Source: Gammaproteobacteria bacterium (GTDB taxonomy: Bacteria; Pseudomonadota; Gammaproteobacteria; Pseudomonadales; Litorivicinaceae). Taken from it: 64,000 bases of DNA. This document shows, piece by piece, positions 13,781 through 59,028 of this stretch. The notes under the pieces were generated by a model that saw nothing but the letters and a program-made list of their open reading frames with translations, did no database searches and had not been told where the DNA came from. The first letter of the stretch is position 1; each line of letters begins with the position of its first letter. Made by a program: the position numbers and the translations under genes. Where the stretch lies: assembly GCA_024640985.1 (NCBI GenBank), contig JAHEDY010000001.1, positions 35,769 to 99,768 of the forward strand. Direction: 5' to 3'.

Positions 13781-15373
13781 TTGAGACCCAACGTGAATCA
13801 AATTGAACGGGAAGGTGCGATTCGACGCACATTCGCCATTATTTCGCACCCTGACGCTGGTAAAACCACCATGACCGAAAAGCTCTTGCTGTTCGGTCAT
13901 GCGATTTCGGTCGCAGGCACTGTTAAGGCAAGAAAAGCAGCGCGACATGCAACATCTGACTGGATGCAGATGGAGCAAGAACGTGGCATTTCGGTGACCA
14001 CTTCGGTGATGCAATTTCCCTATCAGGGTCGAGTGGTCAACCTTCTGGATACCCCTGGGCATGAAGATTTTTCCGAAGATACCTACCGGACTCTGACTGC
14101 AGTGGATTCGGCATTGATGGTGCTTGATGGCGCCAAAGGCGTCGAGGATCGCACCATTAAATTGATGCAGGTATGTCGATTGCGGACTACGCCGATTGTT
14201 TCATTCGTCAATAAGTTAGACCGTGATATTCGTGACCCAATTGAATTGATGGATGAGGTCGAAGAGGTCTTGAAGATCTCCGTCACTCCAGTGACTTGGC
14301 CGATTGGTATGGGGCCACACTTCAAAGGTGTCTATCACCTGAGAACAGATACTCTGCACGTCTATGTCAAAGGCCAAGGCGACCGTATTCCCGACGATAT
14401 CCGTATTCAGGGGTTAGATTCTGATGAAGCGCGTGAGTTTTTAGGGAGTGAGTGGCAGGATTTTTCAGATCAGGTTGAGCTGGTCAGAGAAGCGACTCCT
14501 GCCTTTGAGGTCGATCGATTTTTGGCCGGTGAGTTGACGCCCGTATTTTTTGGTACAGCAATGGGTAATTTTGGTGTGCGGGAGATGCTGAATGATTTTG
14601 TGGAATATGCTCCAAAGCCCATCGTACGAGAAACAGAAACACGTGCAGTGAATCCTTCGGAAGAGAAGTTCAGCGGGTTTGTCTTTAAGATTCAGGCGAA
14701 CATGGATCCGAAGCATCGCGACCGCATTGCCTTTTTACGTGTGTGCTCAGGAGCCTACAAAAAAGGCATGAAGATTAAGCATACGCGCATTGGTAAAGAC
14801 GTCAGGATCTCAGATGCCGTGACCTTTTTAGCCGGTGATCGTGCATCTGCCGAAGAGGCATACCCCGGTGATATTTTAGGTCTTCATAATCATGGCACGA
14901 TTCAAATTGGAGATACCTTTACCGAAGGAGAAGATCTTCAATTTACGGGGATTCCTCATTTTGCGCCTGAGCTATTTCGACGTGTCCGTCTGAAAGACCC
15001 ATTGAAAACCAAGCAGTTACAGAAAGGGCTCACCCAGTTGTCGGAAGAGGGTGCGACTCAGGTATTCATGCCGCACAAAAACAATGACTTAATTGTCGGA
15101 GCCGTCGGTGTTCTGCAGTTTGATGTGGTGGCCTTTCGATTATTGGATGAGTACAAAGCGGAAGCGGTTTATGACCAAATCAATGTGTACACAGCCCGAT
15201 GGATCAAATGTGACGATCCAAAAATGCTCGCTGATTTTAAAAAGAAAGCGTATGAGAATCTCGCCGACGATGGTGGTGGGTATCTCACGTATCTGGCGCC
15301 ATCACGGGCGAATTTGCAACTCATGCAAGAGCGTTGGCCAGATGTTCAGTTCTTGGAAACCAGAGAGCATTGA
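13781..15373 (+). CDS. prfC: Peptide chain release factor 3
   Basis: Translational GTPase with [24 protein letters not shown] and NKLD motifs, about 529 aa. Start is TTG 13781 or GTG 13793. Confidence 0.9.
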
Positions 15374-53439: not shown

Positions 53440-53850
53440 ATGAATCCATGGATTGCGCATCTTGAAAACCAGGACTTGAAGTGGATCGTTGATCAGGGCC
53501 AGGGGATCTATTTGGATCCCGGAATTGAGATCCATTTCCCACACCCGACACTGATTTTAGATGGTGAGCTTGAGTGTCGAGGCCACGTTCGTGGAGGGGG
53601 TGCGTTACTTGGTCTTTCCGAATGGTATTTGGAAATTGATCAAGGAAGCTTTTGGCATGTCAATACGCCCGTTTGGGGTCTTGAATTGCCGTTAACAGCG
53701 AAACATAAAGCTGCCTGGAGCGTTGCTTTAGCAGTCGCTATGTCAGCAGAAATCCGATTGGCTCAACCTGATGCACAGGGACTGGCTGATGTCGAAGCAG
53801 CGCGTCTGAAATTCCGGTATGTTGTGAGCCAGTTGGAAACTACTTTGTGA
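53440..53850 (+). CDS. Small cyclic-nucleotide-binding-like (beta-roll) protein, hypothetical
   Basis: 136 aa from ATG 53440 (RBS GAGGG). LENQDLKWIVDQGQGIYLDPGIEIHF..PTLILDGELEC...GLSEW resembles a degenerate CAP effector-domain layout, read by eye only. An in-frame GTG at 53371 is an alternative start. Confidence 0.45.
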   Translation: MNPWIAHLENQDLKWIVDQGQGIYLDPGIEIHFPHPTLILDGELECRGHVRGGGALLGLSEWYLEIDQGSFWHVNTPVWGLELPLTAKHKAAWSVALAVAMSAEIRLAQPDAQGLADVEAARLKFRYVVSQLETTL

Positions 53851-53859
53851 GGAATTTCA

Positions 53860-54366
53860 GTGGCTGAAGAATCGCGTCAGTCGGCAACTGATGGACTGGG
53901 ATTGCCGCGCCGGATGTGGTGGCTGTGGCCTTTCGTGGTCTTATTGATTGTGATCTGGGCAATCAGTTTGTGGGCGGTCCGTGTGGCTGATACGGAAACA
54001 ACGCTCGGCGTTGTGACCTCCCACCGAGGCTTGGGTAATACCGCACGTGCCGAGATTGCTCTCTTTGTTCCGTCATCGATTCAACCGCGAGTTCTTGGTG
54101 AAGCAGTGGACGTGACCTGTCAGGGTGTGACCTTAAAAGCACAAGTTTTTTCTGAGTCGGGCGATATTCTCTCGGTTCAGGATATTCGTGATTGGGTGGG
54201 GAGTCGCTTGTTGGCCGAGCGGCTGTTTAATGATGGAGTCCGATTGCAACAGGTAGTGACAGAATCAGGAGCGCATATTCCAGCGCCGGGTGAACATTGT
54301 GATGTGACTGTCATCAGTGGTCGTGTGCGTTTGCTGGAGCTCCTTGGGCGCAGCCTTCAGTCATGA
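53860..54366 (+). CDS. Truncated HlyD-like adaptor (TM anchor plus C-terminal barrel only)
   Basis: 168 aa, GTG start with GAGGA RBS. One TM (MWWLWPFVVLLIVIWAISLWAV), then a beta-rich segment ending ...GEHCDVTVISGRVRLLELLGRSL, like the C-terminus of type I secretion HlyD proteins. No room for the lipoyl or coiled-coil hairpin. Confidence 0.5.
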   Translation: MAEESRQSATDGLGLPRRMWWLWPFVVLLIVIWAISLWAVRVADTETTLGVVTSHRGLGNTARAEIALFVPSSIQPRVLGEAVDVTCQGVTLKAQVFSESGDILSVQDIRDWVGSRLLAERLFNDGVRLQQVVTESGAHIPAPGEHCDVTVISGRVRLLELLGRSLQS

Positions 54367-55592
54367 CAGCGATTGTCGATGGACTGATTGCAACTGGGGC
54401 AACCTTCGAAGCGGTTGCAGATGAGGCTCGCTCTCTTGGTTACCGCCTGAAAGAACGTCGTCTTAAGCCTCCATTCGCCGGATCTGTTTTTGTTGACTCC
54501 ACGGGGCGACTTCATCGGATTCGTTATGCAGTCCTTGGCTGGGTTGCCAGCATCGATGGCGACTCGAAGCTTCATCTGACCCGATGGAGAAAAGCCTTTG
54601 CGGTTGGTGGTTATGTGCTGGAGCCAGAGCGAGCGGATTACAATTTAACCGTGCAATGGTTTGCTCTGACGCTGGTTGTGGTTGCGCGCCTGTTGCTGGT
54701 GATGCTGGTCAGTATCCTTGGGCAAGTGAGTGACCAGACTTTGGCACCATTGTGGATTCTGACTGCGCTAATTCTGGCATCAACCACCTACACATCCATC
54801 ACCTTAATTCATCGCTCTCAATGGCATGATCTTGAAGCTGCACTCGATGCCATGGCCCCAGACTGGATTCCTCGTTTATCTCGAGATGTGGGTGGAAGAA
54901 TCCTCGCAGTGACAACCCTGTTTGGCATGTTGATCTTGGATCGGGTGCTTGAACTGTCGCCTGCGATTTGGGTTGTCGGGATTGGCTTTTTGTTCCTTGA
55001 TTTGATGCCGACTCGCCATTTTAAGCAAGCCAAGGCGCTTACACTGACGCCAGAAGTACGCACAGCAAGGGAGCCACGTCAGTTGATGGCGCAGTTGACG
55101 ATGCTTTTGAAGGTTGTCGGCCCTGGAGTCTACGTACTTAACACGCAATTTCCAGAACGGCTGTTGGCCGCCAGTGAAAATCTCGTTCGAGCCGGCGAAC
55201 CCTTAACGGTATTAGGTCCTGAAGCGGAGTTTTTACCGGGCACGCTCAGGAGTAACTTTGCTTGGGATGCTAGTGACATCGGGGAGTATCACTTTAGTAA
55301 CTTGATGGATTTGGTCGGATTTCCGCACTGGAAAGCGCGTTTTGGTGGTTCATTAAACTATCAAGTCGGTCCCAATAATCAGGGATTATCATCGTCAGAA
55401 GCTTCGGCGCTTCAAGTGGCTCGTGCGCTTGCTCAAGGTGCGGATACGCTCATTTTGGTGGACGCATTAGCTCCGATGTCGGCCGATCGACAAATGGAAT
55501 TATTGAACCGTTTAGCGGCAGCAAGTTGTCGTGTCTTTGTGTTTTCGAGTGTTTCAGATTTGTGGGATAGTGATGTCATCGATCTCGACTGA
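54363..55592 (+). CDS. ABC-exporter-like membrane protein with degenerate (pseudo) nucleotide-binding domain
   Basis: 409 aa with about 4 TM. The C-terminal about 150 aa align by eye to an ABC NBD. The signature is LSSSEASALQVARAL (canonical LSGGQ.QR.A.ARAL). Walker B is TLILVDALAPMSAD (Glu replaced by Ala). The Walker A position reads LGPEAEFLPGT, with no GxxGxGK[ST]. Confidence 0.55.
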   Translation: MTAIVDGLIATGATFEAVADEARSLGYRLKERRLKPPFAGSVFVDSTGRLHRIRYAVLGWVASIDGDSKLHLTRWRKAFAVGGYVLEPERADYNLTVQWFALTLVVVARLLLVMLVSILGQVSDQTLAPLWILTALILASTTYTSITLIHRSQWHDLEAALDAMAPDWIPRLSRDVGGRILAVTTLFGMLILDRVLELSPAIWVVGIGFLFLDLMPTRHFKQAKALTLTPEVRTAREPRQLMAQLTMLLKVVGPGVYVLNTQFPERLLAASENLVRAGEPLTVLGPEAEFLPGTLRSNFAWDASDIGEYHFSNLMDLVGFPHWKARFGGSLNYQVGPNNQGLSSSEASALQVARALAQGADTLILVDALAPMSADRQMELLNRLAAASCRVFVFSSVSDLWDSDVIDLD

Positions 55593-57408
55593 AACGCAAA
55601 GCTTCCATCTCAACCAAGGCAAATTATCGGCAGGCTTGGCGCGTGACCGGCTGTGGCAAGTGAAAGAGGGTCAAGCCCGACTTCGTTTGGTAATTTCAGG
55701 TGAAACTGTCGGTGAGATGTCTGTCCCGGAATCGGGTTGGTTTTTAGTTCCAGAAAGCGGCTATTTACGAGTTCAACTGATTGCGGAAACCGACATCACT
55801 TTTGAAAGTCGCCTGCCCTTAGGCTTGATCCCACGGCTGGGTGATTTAGGCCGTCGGCAACTAATTCAGCCGATTCGCCAGATGATGGCTGCTGCAGGAA
55901 TCGACGACAGCTTGGTCGACTGGAATGTGAAATTGGCACAACCAAGCTTCCGCTCTTGGTTTGGTGAATCACTCGATCAAGCGATTCAACAGAAACAACC
56001 GCTGTCACCAGATGTCTTGACTCCATTAATCGCAGATCATGTTCCACGGACGATTCTCGAACACGATGTTGCCGTCGAAGAGCACCGAGTGGTTTGGGTG
56101 TTAATGACTGTTTGTGCGTTATCGATGGTTGCTGTGGTGAGCTGGCTTGGTGCATTGGTTGCCCTGGAAGCACCGGGTTTTTCATTGAGTACCCAGTACT
56201 TTGCCGTGATCGCCGCTTGCCTCGGATTCATTATTGCCTCGGTCGGAGTGATTCATTCGTTAGCCGCATATTTCCGAGACGTCCGTCCAGTGGGGTTGGC
56301 GGCTGCCTTGTCGATGACGATCTTAATTCTTCTCTTTGAAGCGCCAACGCTTGCGTTATCACTGCTATTTTCAGGCGCATTAATTGCTGGAGCCTATTGG
56401 ATTTACGTCAGACGTTTGTTGCCGGATTTGCCAGCGATTGATCAACCGATGCGCTGGTTGTCGCTGCGTTTGGCTCGCGATGGTGTGCCTTCGGTTCGTG
56501 AACGGGTTTTGACTGTCTGGGATCAGGCCAGACAATGGGTGATTGCGCGGATTGAGTTGGTCGCTGAATACAGTCGTTTCAGTCGTTCGGTCATCGCTGC
56601 GAGTTTGGTGATTCCCGCTATTGCGTCAACAGACGACAGTCGACCGATTGTGCTCACCGGCTTATCTTTGGCGGCACTGATTTTATTGGAGCGATTACGG
56701 GCAGCCATTCCTGTGAGTGTGGAGTCAGAGACTGTGACTCAATCCCCATCGGCTCGACCGCTGGCACTGGCAGGGGATGTGAACTATGAAGGAATTGTCT
56801 ATCGACGTCACGCAGGTGAAGCTCCGTTATTTGATCAATTAAACTTTCACTGTGCCGATGACAGTTTGGTTCGAATCACTGCAGCCGAAGGAGCTGGGCT
56901 CTCGACACTCAAGCATCTGTTGATGCGTCAAGTCTCACCGGAACGAGGTGTCGTGCGTGTTGGTGGGATGGATGTGGCAAGACTGGATCCCAATCTTCTC
57001 GCATGTTCGGTGATTACACTTGACCACCCCAAAGATTCGGAAGTCTCGACAGTGGGCGACTGGTTATTCATTGAACCAGGCATTGAGCCTTCAACGTTAG
57101 AGACTCACCTTCAAGCACTGTCTGTCAGTCACTGGATCGAATCCCTGCAGGACCGGCTGAATACACCCTTGGGTGTCTTGCAATCGATGGCCGGTCCGCA
57201 TGGAATGAATCGGTTGAAATTGGCGCGAGCGCTATCGCGGCAAGGGCAGTTGATGTGGCTTGATCATTGGTTAGTAGGCCTTGACCAATCAGCCCGGACG
57301 CATGTGGTTGAGAGCTTAGTCGAGCGTTCAGGAACACGATTTGTGGTTGATCGCAACGGGCTCTTTAGAGGGAAACCGTCGATTCATTGGGAGATTGGCG
57401 GTGATTGA
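55573..57408 (+). CDS. cNMP-binding-like domain / ABC-exporter-like membrane protein with degenerate NBD
   Basis: About 611 aa. N-terminal beta-roll-like region (LWQVKEGQARLRLVISGETVGEMSVPESGWFLVP...), then about 5-6 TM. In the C-terminal NBD-like domain, Walker A is AAEGAGLST (Lys replaced by Leu). The signature is MAGPHGMNRLKLARAL. Walker B is LMWLDHWLVGLD (Glu replaced by His). The H-loop position is FVVDRNG (His replaced by Asp). Confidence 0.55.
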   Translation: MSSISTETQSFHLNQGKLSAGLARDRLWQVKEGQARLRLVISGETVGEMSVPESGWFLVPESGYLRVQLIAETDITFESRLPLGLIPRLGDLGRRQLIQPIRQMMAAAGIDDSLVDWNVKLAQPSFRSWFGESLDQAIQQKQPLSPDVLTPLIADHVPRTILEHDVAVEEHRVVWVLMTVCALSMVAVVSWLGALVALEAPGFSLSTQYFAVIAACLGFIIASVGVIHSLAAYFRDVRPVGLAAALSMTILILLFEAPTLALSLLFSGALIAGAYWIYVRRLLPDLPAIDQPMRWLSLRLARDGVPSVRERVLTVWDQARQWVIARIELVAEYSRFSRSVIAASLVIPAIASTDDSRPIVLTGLSLAALILLERLRAAIPVSVESETVTQSPSARPLALAGDVNYEGIVYRRHAGEAPLFDQLNFHCADDSLVRITAAEGAGLSTLKHLLMRQVSPERGVVRVGGMDVARLDPNLLACSVITLDHPKDSEVSTVGDWLFIEPGIEPSTLETHLQALSVSHWIESLQDRLNTPLGVLQSMAGPHGMNRLKLARALSRQGQLMWLDHWLVGLDQSARTHVVESLVERSGTRFVVDRNGLFRGKPSIHWEIGGD

Positions 57409-57865
57409 GCAACAACTGTTTCTTGGTGCTCTGACCGAACAAGAGTATCGGCATTGGCTCGATAATGCTGTGGTGAAAACACTCAGTGCCGGTGAGACCT
57501 TGATCACTGAAGATGATTTTCCAGACATTTACCTCGTGTTGCGCGGGCAATTCACGGTCCGTCGTGGTGAGCGGTCACCTGGAATGGTGGGGCTTGATGA
57601 ATTTTTAACGGGCTGGATGACGGATCGAGAATGGATTGCTGATCGGTCGATGACCCTGCTTTCGATTGATTCAGGACGATTTGGCCAGATGTTATCCGTT
57701 GAACCTCACCGAAAGCGTCTCTTCCATCAGAGTGTTACGCCAATGCTTGCTGGCCGGTTGCACCGAGATTTGTGCGCAACAACGGAGATTCCTATCGCAT
57801 TGGTCCAAGACTTTGAGCGCGGTGTTCGGCGCTTTTTTGAACTTAGACAGAATTTTCTGAAGTGA
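57401..57865 (+). CDS. Stand-alone cyclic-nucleotide-binding (CAP_ED-like) domain protein
   Basis: 154 aa from GTG 57401 (GGGAG RBS; GTGATTGA overlap with the upstream stop). LFLGALTEQEYRHWLDNAVVKTLSAGETLITEDDFPDIYLVLRGQFTV... follows the CAP_ED consensus. The phosphate-binding cassette is non-canonical. Confidence 0.6.
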   Translation: MIEQQLFLGALTEQEYRHWLDNAVVKTLSAGETLITEDDFPDIYLVLRGQFTVRRGERSPGMVGLDEFLTGWMTDREWIADRSMTLLSIDSGRFGQMLSVEPHRKRLFHQSVTPMLAGRLHRDLCATTEIPIALVQDFERGVRRFFELRQNFLK

Positions 57866-59028
57866 CCACACCCAACGCAACGAATCGCCATGGAGAGGGT
57901 TTTCTATATCTCTCGATCATGATTTGTTTTTGTGTGCTCTATGCACCGCAACCGATGCTTTCAGAATTGGCTGACCGATTTATGGTCTCCAAACCAGAGG
58001 CGGGACTTCTGGTTTCCGTCACTCTGATTCCACTGGCGATCGCGCCTTTAAGCTATGGCATTTTTTTAAAACAACTCAGTGCGTTAACCATTCTCAAGTG
58101 GGCACTTCCGACCTTGGCCTTGGCGATGGCCTGGTCTGGGTTCGTGCAAACCTATGAGGGAATGCTCACGCTTCGGTTGATCCAGGGCGCGCTCCTGCCC
58201 GCCATTATGACCGCGACGATGGCCTATTTAACGTCAGGCCGTGAGGGAGGTGAGCTCTCTCGAGTCATGGCTTGGTATATTTCAGCGACGATTTTTGGTG
58301 GGATGGCCGGGCGAGTCATTTCCGGACAGTTAGCGTCCATGATTGCCTGGGAATGGGTGGCTTTGATTTGGGCTGGGCTTCTTCTCATGGTGACCTTGAT
58401 GCCTTGGCGTCGAGCGACTCCGAAGCCACTGAACTTAGTAAAGCCTGACGCACAGTTAATCCGACAGGCCATGACCAGCCGCGGTAATGCATTGATTTAT
58501 GTCTCAGTCCTTTGCATGTTTTGGGTGTTTGCGGGTTATCTCAATTACTTACCCTTTCGGATTAATGAACTCGATGCTTCGGCATCGACTGGATTGATTG
58601 GTCAAAGTTATTTGGGTTACAGCATTGGGATTGTGTCTGCCTTGACAGCCGGTTGGCTTGCGAAGCGCGTCGGGGGCGTGATTCGTGCGGCACTGATTGG
58701 ATTTGCGGTCATGATTGGTTCATTACTGTTGGCGCTCGGCAATGTCTGGATGTTGATCACTCAGGTCTTTGTGATGTGCCTTGGGATGTTTGTGATTCAT
58801 ACGCTAGCGGCATCGGAAGTGAACCATAACGCGCGCTCTTTGAGTGGTGTGGTGAACGGTCTCTATGTGTCCTGTTATTACGCAGGCGGTGCTCTTGGTG
58901 CTTGGTTGATGGGGTATGTGTATGAGCTCTTTGGGTGGACCACTTTTGTCGTTGTCCTCTCATGCATTGGCATGGCCGGAGCACTATGCATGTGGCTGTA
59001 TGGTCGTCAGTGGGCTGCTGGTCGATAG
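57862..59028 (+). CDS. MFS transporter (YnfM-like)
   Basis: 12-TM MFS with a YAPQPMLSELADRF N-terminal motif resembling the YnfM family. GTGA overlap with the preceding gene. Confidence 0.85.
   Translation: MTTPNATNRHGEGFLYLSIMICFCVLYAPQPMLSELADRFMVSKPEAGLLVSVTLIPLAIAPLSYGIFLKQLSALTILKWALPTLALAMAWSGFVQTYEGMLTLRLIQGALLPAIMTATMAYLTSGREGGELSRVMAWYISATIFGGMAGRVISGQLASMIAWEWVALIWAGLLLMVTLMPWRRATPKPLNLVKPDAQLIRQAMTSRGNALIYVSVLCMFWVFAGYLNYLPFRINELDASASTGLIGQSYLGYSIGIVSALTAGWLAKRVGGVIRAALIGFAVMIGSLLLALGNVWMLITQVFVMCLGMFVIHTLAASEVNHNARSLSGVVNGLYVSCYYAGGALGAWLMGYVYELFGWTTFVVVLSCIGMAGALCMWLYGRQWAAGR

What the first reader, a model, noticed from the sequence alone, without database searches (positions are those of the whole stretch)
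56779..57408. NBD of the 611-aa protein has every catalytic ABC residue substituted
The motif order and spacing of an ABC NBD are preserved, but the chemistry is gone:
- Walker A reads AAEGAGLST (56881-56907) instead of GxxGxGK[ST]; the essential Lys is Leu.
- The Q-loop region reads SVITLDHP with no Gln.
- The signature is MAGPHGMNRLKLARAL (57187-57234) instead of LSGGQ.
- Walker B is LMWLDH (57250-57267), with the catalytic Glu replaced by His.
- The D-loop GLD is retained.
- The H-loop position reads FVVDRNG, with His replaced by Asp.

Retaining the structural scaffold (ARAL, hydrophobic Walker B strand, D-loop) while losing all catalytic residues is what a selected pseudo-enzyme looks like. 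It is not what random decay looks like.
Basis: partly seen in the sequence, partly recalled or inferred. Interest (0 to 1): 0.6.

Follow-up and report, generated by a model that had tools for sequence, protein, structure and literature searches.

The report
Exporter pair with both motors dead
A common marine bacterial genus keeps, intact and under strong selection, a five-gene descendant of a peptide-export pump in which both ATP-burning subunits have lost their catalytic parts, so the machine must now do something other than ATP-driven export.

Summary
Observation confirmed, with corrections. The 611-aa protein keeps an ABC nucleotide-binding fold but has lost Walker A Lys, Walker B Glu, Q-loop Gln, H-loop His (to Arg594, not Asp593), the signature and the A-loop Tyr. 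The Mg-binding Ser/Thr/Asp remain; the D-loop Asp is not conserved. It is not a pseudogene: orthologues occur in 27 of 30 genomes of the OM252 ('Ca. Halomarinus') genus, NBD dN/dS is 0.08, and none of about 74 restores Lys or Glu. The upstream 409-aa partner has lost its P-loop altogether, so both composite ATP sites are dead. The two genes sit in a fixed five-gene cassette (cNMP-fold, mini-HlyD, ABC1, ABC2, cNMP-fold) that most likely descends from an NHLP/Nif11 peptide exporter (about 80%). It has lost the protease Cys, two membrane helices and the adaptor hairpin, and no Nif11/NHLP cargo was found. Best reading: an ATP-independent inner-membrane sensing or scaffold complex (about 45%); rival: gradient- or ligand-driven translocator (about 30%). 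Inactivity is inferred, not measured. This scan noted other dead-NBD exporters on other DNA, in different families.

The parts
55573..57408 (+). 611-aa ABC2-like subunit: small beta domain, 6 predicted membrane helices, pseudo-NBD
56767..57405 (+). pseudo-NBD (residues 399-611), dN/dS 0.08
56800..56811 (+). A-loop region; Tyr replaced by Arg412; Arg411, Arg412, His413 invariant
56881..56907 (+). Walker A remnant; Lys to Leu443, first Gly to Ala; Gly440, Gly442, Ser/Thr444, Thr445 kept
57022..57030 (+). Q-loop: Gln to Asp484, followed by invariant His485 and Pro486
57190..57204 (+). signature position, AGPHG in place of LSGGQ
57250..57285 (+). Walker B (Asp564 kept; Glu to His565, Asn or Gln in others) and D-loop (Asp571 variable)
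57334..57357 (+). H-loop region; His to Arg594
56419..56601 (+). intracellular loop 2 / coupling helix (283-343), the most constrained part (dN/dS 0.035); contacts the partner NBD in the complex model
55585..55818 (+). N-terminal beta domain, weakly matching the N-terminal region of NHLM ABC2 (E 2.5e-4 to 2e-3) and none of the five other exporter profiles
54363..55592 (+). 409-aa ABC1-like partner: C39-like remnant without the Cys, 4 membrane helices, NBD fold with no P-loop (55053-55097), signature LSSSE (55386-55400), Walker B Asp and Glu lost (55446-55478)
53860..54366 (+). 168-aa mini-HlyD: one membrane helix plus barrel, no hairpin or lipoyl part
53440..53850 (+). 136-aa cNMP-fold protein, best match NHLM-associated cNMP proteins (89%, E 2e-6)
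57401..57865 (+). 154-aa cNMP-fold protein, non-canonical phosphate-binding cassette

Best explanation
The 611-aa protein is one half of an ATPase-dead heterodimer with the upstream 409-aa protein, the core of a five-protein inner-membrane complex descended from an NHLP/Nif11-type peptide exporter and repurposed on the stem of the OM252 genus. SHOWN (sequence): both NBDs keep the fold, neither has a Walker A Lys or catalytic Glu, all five genes are intact, syntenic and under purifying selection. INFERRED: (a) no ATP hydrolysis at either site (about 0.92); (b) the two subunits pair like an exporter heterodimer (about 0.85); (c) descent from the NHLM cassette or a sister split-peptidase cassette (about 0.8); (d) mechanism: the NBD pair acts as a clamp. 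One site (611-aa P-loop facing the partner's LSSSE) has been rebuilt with fixed Arg/His/Asp residues around the retained Mg ligands and binds a small anionic ligand, a metal, or directly the partner. The other site is demolished. The reduced 10-helix membrane part and the periplasmic barrel of the mini-HlyD couple the periplasm to this clamp and to the two cNMP-fold proteins, so the complex senses or scaffolds and does not pump. The confidence given is for the whole statement including (d).
For: Motif loss fixed in about 74 orthologues, and no Walker A pattern in 77 + 25 sequences. dN/dS 0.06-0.18 in 8 independent pairs, NBD 0.08, lysS 0.02-0.15. 147 synonymous against 44 non-synonymous variant codons among 11 near-identical haplotypes. 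Present in all 14 genus genomes at least 90% complete, not found in 7 sister-genus genomes. Former ATP-site positions are more conserved than the rest of the NBD (0.94 vs 0.75, P 0.002; polar ones 0.91 vs 0.69, P 0.004). Complex model: score 0.75, best of 3 controls 0.00; the mark was reached by 58 of 80 solved and 2 of 110 mismatched pairs; runs agree in at least 88% of contacts; partner pLDDT at least 76. It shows a swapped coupling helix and an NBD-NBD contact, but may pass by likeness to solved heterodimers. Gene order HlyD-ABC1-ABC2-cNMP as in Azospirillum and four other proteobacterial loci. Helices 1-4 of the 611-aa subunit are poorly conserved (0.42-0.64) with no fixed charged residue. 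The adaptor lacks the hairpin that would reach TolC (168 aa vs about 430). No Nif11, NHLP-precursor or C39 match in the genomes searched.
Against: No output domain (kinase, DNA-binding, enzyme) is in the cassette, so what a sensor would control is unknown. Walker and P-loop positions are also structural, so their conservation need not mean a ligand; for the five substituted positions alone P is only 0.065, and His565 varies. NBD trees cannot place the protein. Its NBD scores as well against LssB-type T1SS profiles (143.5) as against NHLM ABC2 (139.5), and the 154-aa protein scores higher against generic cNMP proteins over its beta-roll. The partner has an invariant intramembrane Arg109 and Asp213 that could serve ion coupling.
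Confidence: 0.45

Rival explanations
1. ATP-independent translocator: the 10-helix heterodimer still moves a small solute, peptide or lipid across the inner membrane, driven by the proton or sodium gradient (as SbmA does) or gated by ligand binding to the dead NBD site and the cNMP-fold proteins.
For: The swapped coupling helix is the most constrained part (dN/dS 0.035), as expected if conformational coupling persists. The partner's helices are conserved (0.62-0.87) with invariant Arg109, Tyr143, Thr147, His150 and Asp213. SbmA is an ABC-derived, proton-driven transporter (PMC13316013).
Against: Two of twelve helices and one intracellular loop per subunit are missing. The 611-aa subunit's first four helices have no fixed polar residue. 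No cargo or binding protein travels with the cassette.
Confidence: 0.3
2. Still an ATP-using transporter: ATP binds and is slowly hydrolysed at the rebuilt site by substitute chemistry (Arg412, Arg594 or His565 standing in), or binding alone drives the cycle.
For: Gly440, Gly442, Ser/Thr444, Thr445 and Asp564 are kept, and the partner's signature keeps Leu-Ser. Degenerate sites in known exporters still bind ATP tightly (PMC7756269).
Against: In those exporters a second, active site powers the cycle. Here the second site has no P-loop. Lys, A-loop aromatic, Gln, Glu and His are all lost together, and His565 is Asn or Gln in 12 orthologues.
Confidence: 0.12
3. Purely structural accessory: the complex has no ligand and serves as an obligate membrane scaffold for another machine encoded elsewhere, for example the genome's TolC/RND system or envelope assembly.
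For: No output domain. Trp content is 2-4.4% against 0.7-1.2% in NHLM references, as for a rigid packed assembly. It behaves as a core-gene set in a small genome.
Against: Fixed polar residues at the old ATP site; two cNMP-fold proteins are kept, which suggests ligand or partner sensing.
Confidence: 0.1
4. Pseudogene or slow neutral decay of an abandoned exporter.
For: Very long stem branch (5.2 substitutions per site), and loss of every hallmark of the ancestral function.
Against: dN/dS comparable to lysS. Open frames of the same length down to 44% identity. The one apparent frameshift among the genomes sits at an assembly gap of Ns; only 2 of 35 metagenome loci show a break.
Confidence: 0.02

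Closest known systems
NHLP/Nif11 (NHLM) three-gene export cassette, TIGR03794 HlyD + TIGR03796 peptidase-ABC + TIGR03797 ABC (PMC2887384), with its cNMP partner (TIGR03896-like)
   Same: Order HlyD, ABC1, ABC2, cNMP. Among NHLM components each protein matches its positional counterpart best. ABC1-type NL.LWD motif and first coupling loop in the 409-aa protein; ABC2-type end-of-TMD motif, TRxV motif and N-terminal domain in the 611-aa protein.
   Different: Both NBDs dead; C39 Cys gone; 10 rather than 12 helices; adaptor 168 aa; two cNMP-fold genes; no Nif11 match in 37 genomes; no match over the curated cut-off in 37 family genomes (TIGR03797, TIGR03896).
Heterodimeric type IV exporters with one degenerate site (TM287/288, TmrAB, TAP, CFTR; PMC7756269)
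   Same: Exporter fold; a non-hydrolysing site kept under selection as a structural hub.
   Different: They keep one active site, and by general knowledge the degenerate site keeps its Walker A Lys. Here neither site has Lys or Glu.
SbmA/SLiPT (PMC13316013)
   Same: ABC-exporter-derived membrane domain that works without ATP.
   Different: SbmA is related to the ABC membrane domain only; here two dead NBDs are retained and constrained, with an adaptor and cNMP-fold partners.
HetC of Nostoc (PMC10986499)
   Same: Peptidase-type exporter tied to a cNMP-fold domain; that domain binds ppGpp in vitro.
   Different: HetC needs its protease and ATPase catalytic residues; here both are lost and the cNMP folds are separate genes.
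Two-ABC type I secretion cassettes next to giant adhesins (locus L109)
   Same: Two unlike ABC subunits plus HlyD; top full-database non-family hits of the NBD.
   Different: Order ABC, ABC, HlyD; no cNMP genes; full-length adaptor; lower profile scores for both subunits.

Membership tests
ABC NBD (PF00005 fold) | NBD fold with motif order A-loop, Walker A, Q-loop, signature, Walker B, D-loop, H-loop | tested here: met
   (Z 17.7, rmsd 3.2 A, 209 residues to ComA NBD)
Active ABC ATPase | Walker A Lys, Walker B Glu, Q-loop Gln, H-loop His, LSGGQ | tested here: not met
   Lys, Glu and Gln absent in all of about 74 orthologues; His in 1 of 71
Active ABC ATPase | measured ATP hydrolysis | not testable with these tools
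   needs purified protein
Type IV ABC exporter half-transporter | six-helix membrane domain fused to NBD, with two long intracellular loops | tested here: inconclusive
   611-aa: six helices and exporter fold, but the first loop is about 6-10 residues; 409-aa: four helices only
Asymmetric heterodimeric exporter | one degenerate plus one consensus site | tested here: not met
   partner has no P-loop and lacks Walker B Asp/Glu
NHLM cassette (TIGR03794/03796/03797) | score over curated cut-offs | tested here: not met
   39.6 bits vs 709.4 for TIGR03797; ABC1 E 2e-4 at best; HlyD no hit
NHLM cassette (TIGR03794/03796/03797) | three adjacent genes HlyD + peptidase-type ABC + second ABC | tested here: met
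   order and positional homology; the HlyD profile match alone is weak and not NHLM-specific
NHLM cassette (TIGR03794/03796/03797) | C39 peptidase with catalytic Cys on ABC1 | tested here: not met
   no Cys in the first 25 residues in 20 of 21 orthologues; PF03412 not found in 5 near-complete genomes
NHLM cassette (TIGR03794/03796/03797) | NHLP or Nif11 precursor in the genome | tested here: not met
   PF07862 0 of 37 genomes; TIGR03793 none over cut-off in 5, the weak hits lie in 216-221-aa frames, the size of nitrile hydratase alpha
NHLM cassette (TIGR03794/03796/03797) | NBD groups with ABC2 in a tree | tested here: inconclusive
   long stem; AU p 0.22 for ABC2, 0.27 ABC1, 0.59 CydC-like, 0.29 MsbA-like
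Type I secretion system | adaptor with alpha-hairpin able to engage TolC | tested here: not met
   168-aa protein is anchor plus barrel only; a TolC gene exists elsewhere in the genome
SLiPT (SbmA-like) | proton-driven transport | not testable with these tools
   needs proteoliposome assay
Pseudogene | frameshifts or stops, dN/dS near 1 | tested here: not met

The most novel reading that the evidence does not exclude
A whole peptide-export machine was domesticated into a genus-defining, ATP-independent trans-membrane signalling device, in which a dead NBD dimer carries a new ligand pocket (nucleotide messenger, phosphate compound or metal) and talks to two cNMP-fold proteins and a periplasmic barrel.
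Probability: 0.25. Interest if true: 0.85.

Novelty: new variant of a known kind. Interest (0 to 1): 0.62.

Why it matters
Known ABC exporters with a degenerate site keep one working ATPase. A heterodimer with both sites dead, retained with its adaptor and regulatory partners as core genes in a small-genome, globally distributed bacterioplankton genus, would show that an entire exporter can be repurposed for a job that needs no ATP hydrolysis. Cultured strains (HIMB30, LSUCC0096) carry it, so the question is directly testable. These genes are invisible to standard annotation (no family cut-off reached).

Tried and rejected
Pseudogene: rejected; the apparent frameshift in L031/G003 is at a run of Ns. 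MFS gene 57862-59028 as a sixth member: rejected; it is missing next to the cassette in 10 fetched loci and is a neighbour of lysS in the sister genus, which lacks the cassette. NBD phylogeny to name the ancestor: unresolved. Within-genome ranking with family profiles: the 611-aa NBD did not rank NHLM ABC2 first; the 409-aa and 136-aa profiles found nothing; the 154-aa profile hit the NHLM cNMP gene in one of five genomes and generic cNMP proteins across 400. N-terminal domain profile over 400 genomes: nothing. Search of 1.84 billion representatives: no full-length relative outside the family. Expression: contigs in four RNA libraries cover cassette genes, but two run evenly across the convergent gene boundary, so DNA carry-over is not excluded and transcription is not shown. 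LanC search rang nowhere, controls included, so it is uninformative. Promoter and terminator scan at chance level. Literature searches found no description of this family or of a both-sites-dead exporter; the OM252 genome paper does not mention bacteriocin or secretion. The library is incomplete.

Full report
1. Observation. The ORF 55573-57408 (+) encodes 611 aa, and the quoted motifs lie at the stated coordinates. A profile of 27 orthologues aligns to solved ABCB1 NBDs (E 6e-29) with Leu443 on the Walker A Lys, Asp484 on the Q-loop Gln, AGPHG on LSGGQ and His565 on the catalytic Glu. The AlphaFold model (mean pLDDT 77, pTM 0.42) matches type IV exporters, and residues 397-610 superpose on the ComA NBD (Z 17.7, rmsd 3.2 A, 209 residues). 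Four corrections follow from alignment to NHLM ABC2 and from orthologue counts. The H-loop His corresponds to Arg594, not Asp593. The A-loop Tyr is also lost (Arg412). The Mg-binding Ser/Thr444, Thr445 and Asp564 are kept. The D-loop Asp571 is variable (50 of 73).

2. Not decay. About 50 sequence clusters from 96% down to 44% identity were found, most about 610 aa long. Named hits place the genome in the Litorivicinaceae genus that holds HIMB30 and LSUCC0096, described as OM252 or 'Ca. Halomarinus' (PMC8269220). The gene is in 27 of 30 genomes of the genus, including all 14 that are at least 90% complete. Of the three without a match, one has the upstream gene at a contig end, one also lacks lysS and one is 60% complete. 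It was not found in 7 genomes of the sister genus, where lysS and the same flanking genes are present without it. No full-length relative exists outside the family among 1.84 billion representatives. In 8 independent genome pairs dN/dS is 0.06-0.18 for the gene, 0.08 for the NBD and 0.035 for residues 283-343; lysS gives 0.02-0.15 (Nei-Gojobori; one pair is inflated by an assembly gap). Among 11 near-identical haplotypes there are 147 synonymous and 44 non-synonymous variant codons. Two of 35 metagenome loci show a break, and a few database proteins are short or read through; I did not check these at DNA level. The substitutions are fixed: Leu443 74/74, Arg412 74/74, Asp484 73/74; position 565 is His, Asn or Gln and never Glu.

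3. The unit is five genes. Genes of 136, 168, 409, 611 and 154 aa follow lysS with short gaps or overlaps and stay together in every locus long enough to tell; the downstream MFS gene does not. The 409-aa protein has an NBD fold (Z 13-14), but its P-loop region is unrecognisable, its signature is LSSSE and its Walker B lacks both acidic residues in register. No orthologue of either subunit contains a Walker A pattern. In ABC dimers each site is built from the P-loop of one subunit and the signature of the other (established knowledge), so both sites lack Lys and Glu. A complex model scored 0.75 against a best control of 0.00; the mark was reached by 58 of 80 solved and 2 of 110 mismatched pairs, runs agreed in at least 88% of contacts, and partner pLDDT was at least 76. 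The best-defined contacts join helix 335-346 to the partner's second helix and the coupling helix 301-302 to the partner NBD; the interface lists also include the 611-aa P-loop (439-444) and the partner's signature (343-346). The pass may come from likeness to solved heterodimers and does not show binding.

4. Ancestry. I built reference alignments from 15 NHLM loci. Azospirillum oryzae and four other proteobacterial loci have the order HlyD, ABC1, ABC2, cNMP, as here. Among these references, the 611-aa protein matches ABC2 best (98.7%), the 409-aa ABC1 (91%), and the 154- and 136-aa proteins the cNMP partner (96% and 89%). Position-consistent extra matches cover the ABC2 N-terminal region, the C39 region of ABC1 and its first coupling loop. 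The 168-aa protein resembles short HlyD/LcnD-type proteins (Atlas score 0.92-0.96). Against this: NBD trees leave the protein unplaced on a stem of 5.2 substitutions per site, AU tests reject no placement, an LssB-type profile scores as high for the NBD, and generic cNMP proteins score higher for the 154-aa beta-roll. I put descent from the NHLM cassette or a sister split-peptidase cassette at about 0.8. It is not a member by cut-off, protease or cargo. The long stem and short crown branches suggest a burst of change followed by renewed constraint (inference).

5. Mechanism. Export as in the ancestor is implausible: no hydrolytic site, no protease Cys, 6 + 4 helices, and an adaptor without the hairpin. 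What is conserved points to what is used. The inter-subunit helices and coupling helix are strongly constrained, while helices 1-4 of the 611-aa subunit vary freely and have no fixed charge. The positions that once lined the ATP site on the 611-aa side are more conserved than the NBD average (0.94 vs 0.75, P 0.002), though the five substituted positions alone reach only P 0.065. I therefore favour a clamp-like pseudo-ATPase dimer with one rebuilt pocket, coupled to a periplasmic barrel and two cNMP-fold proteins, serving sensing or scaffolding (0.45). A gradient- or ligand-driven translocator is the main rival (0.3), supported by invariant Arg109 and Asp213 in the partner's helices and by the SbmA precedent (PMC13316013). 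ATP use by substitute chemistry (0.12), a ligand-free scaffold (0.1) and decay (0.02) follow. No step of the mechanism is shown experimentally, no output partner is known, and expression is not shown.

6. Comparison and novelty. Described asymmetric exporters keep one active site (PMC7756269). HetC joins a cNMP fold to a peptidase exporter but needs both catalytic residues (PMC10986499). I found no paper on this family or on an exporter heterodimer with both sites dead, within an incomplete library. Unchecked notes of this scan report dead-NBD exporters in other families, some paired with cNMP proteins, so the theme recurs; this case differs in being a heterodimer with both subunits dead, a shrunken adaptor and a genus-wide core distribution. 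Verdict: real, selected pseudo-ATPase; new variant of a known kind; interest 0.62.

Noticed in passing
L079:6880-11150 (G315): An NHLM-type cassette with a Nif11 precursor in which both ABC subunits keep Walker A Lys and Walker B Asp-Glu but show eroded Q-loop, signature or H-loop motifs and long branches; a possible independent, earlier stage of the same erosion.
   Followed up: partly
L067:5991-7118: A 375-aa gene that reads like a deacylase (by eye) lies between lysS and the cassette in this early-branching member; four other such loci have a gap of the same size there, and a similar gene lies near lysS in the sister genus. It is absent at this place in the window's lineage.
   Followed up: partly
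window:57862-59028: The MFS gene is missing beside the cassette in 10 fetched loci and appears broken in L035 and L045, while the cassette stays intact.
   Followed up: partly
window:53440-57865: All five proteins are Trp-rich (2.0-4.4%) against 0.7-1.2% in NHLM references; GC and GC3 are close to the neighbouring genes, so the acquisition is old.
   Followed up: partly
L084:8941-15860 and L086:7251-15342: Plasmid NHLM export cassettes in Azospirillum and Bradyrhizobium with a stand-alone cNMP gene but no annotated precursor or maturase within 9 kb.
   Followed up: no
L103 and L104: NHLP-leader-like matches in 216-221-aa frames in two genus genomes, probably nitrile hydratase alpha subunits; not found in the window's genome.
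   Followed up: no
L033, L034 beyond position 14600: About 6 kb of extra DNA between the FAH-family gene and the M48 protease gene, containing a stretch similar to an ABC NBD.
   Followed up: no
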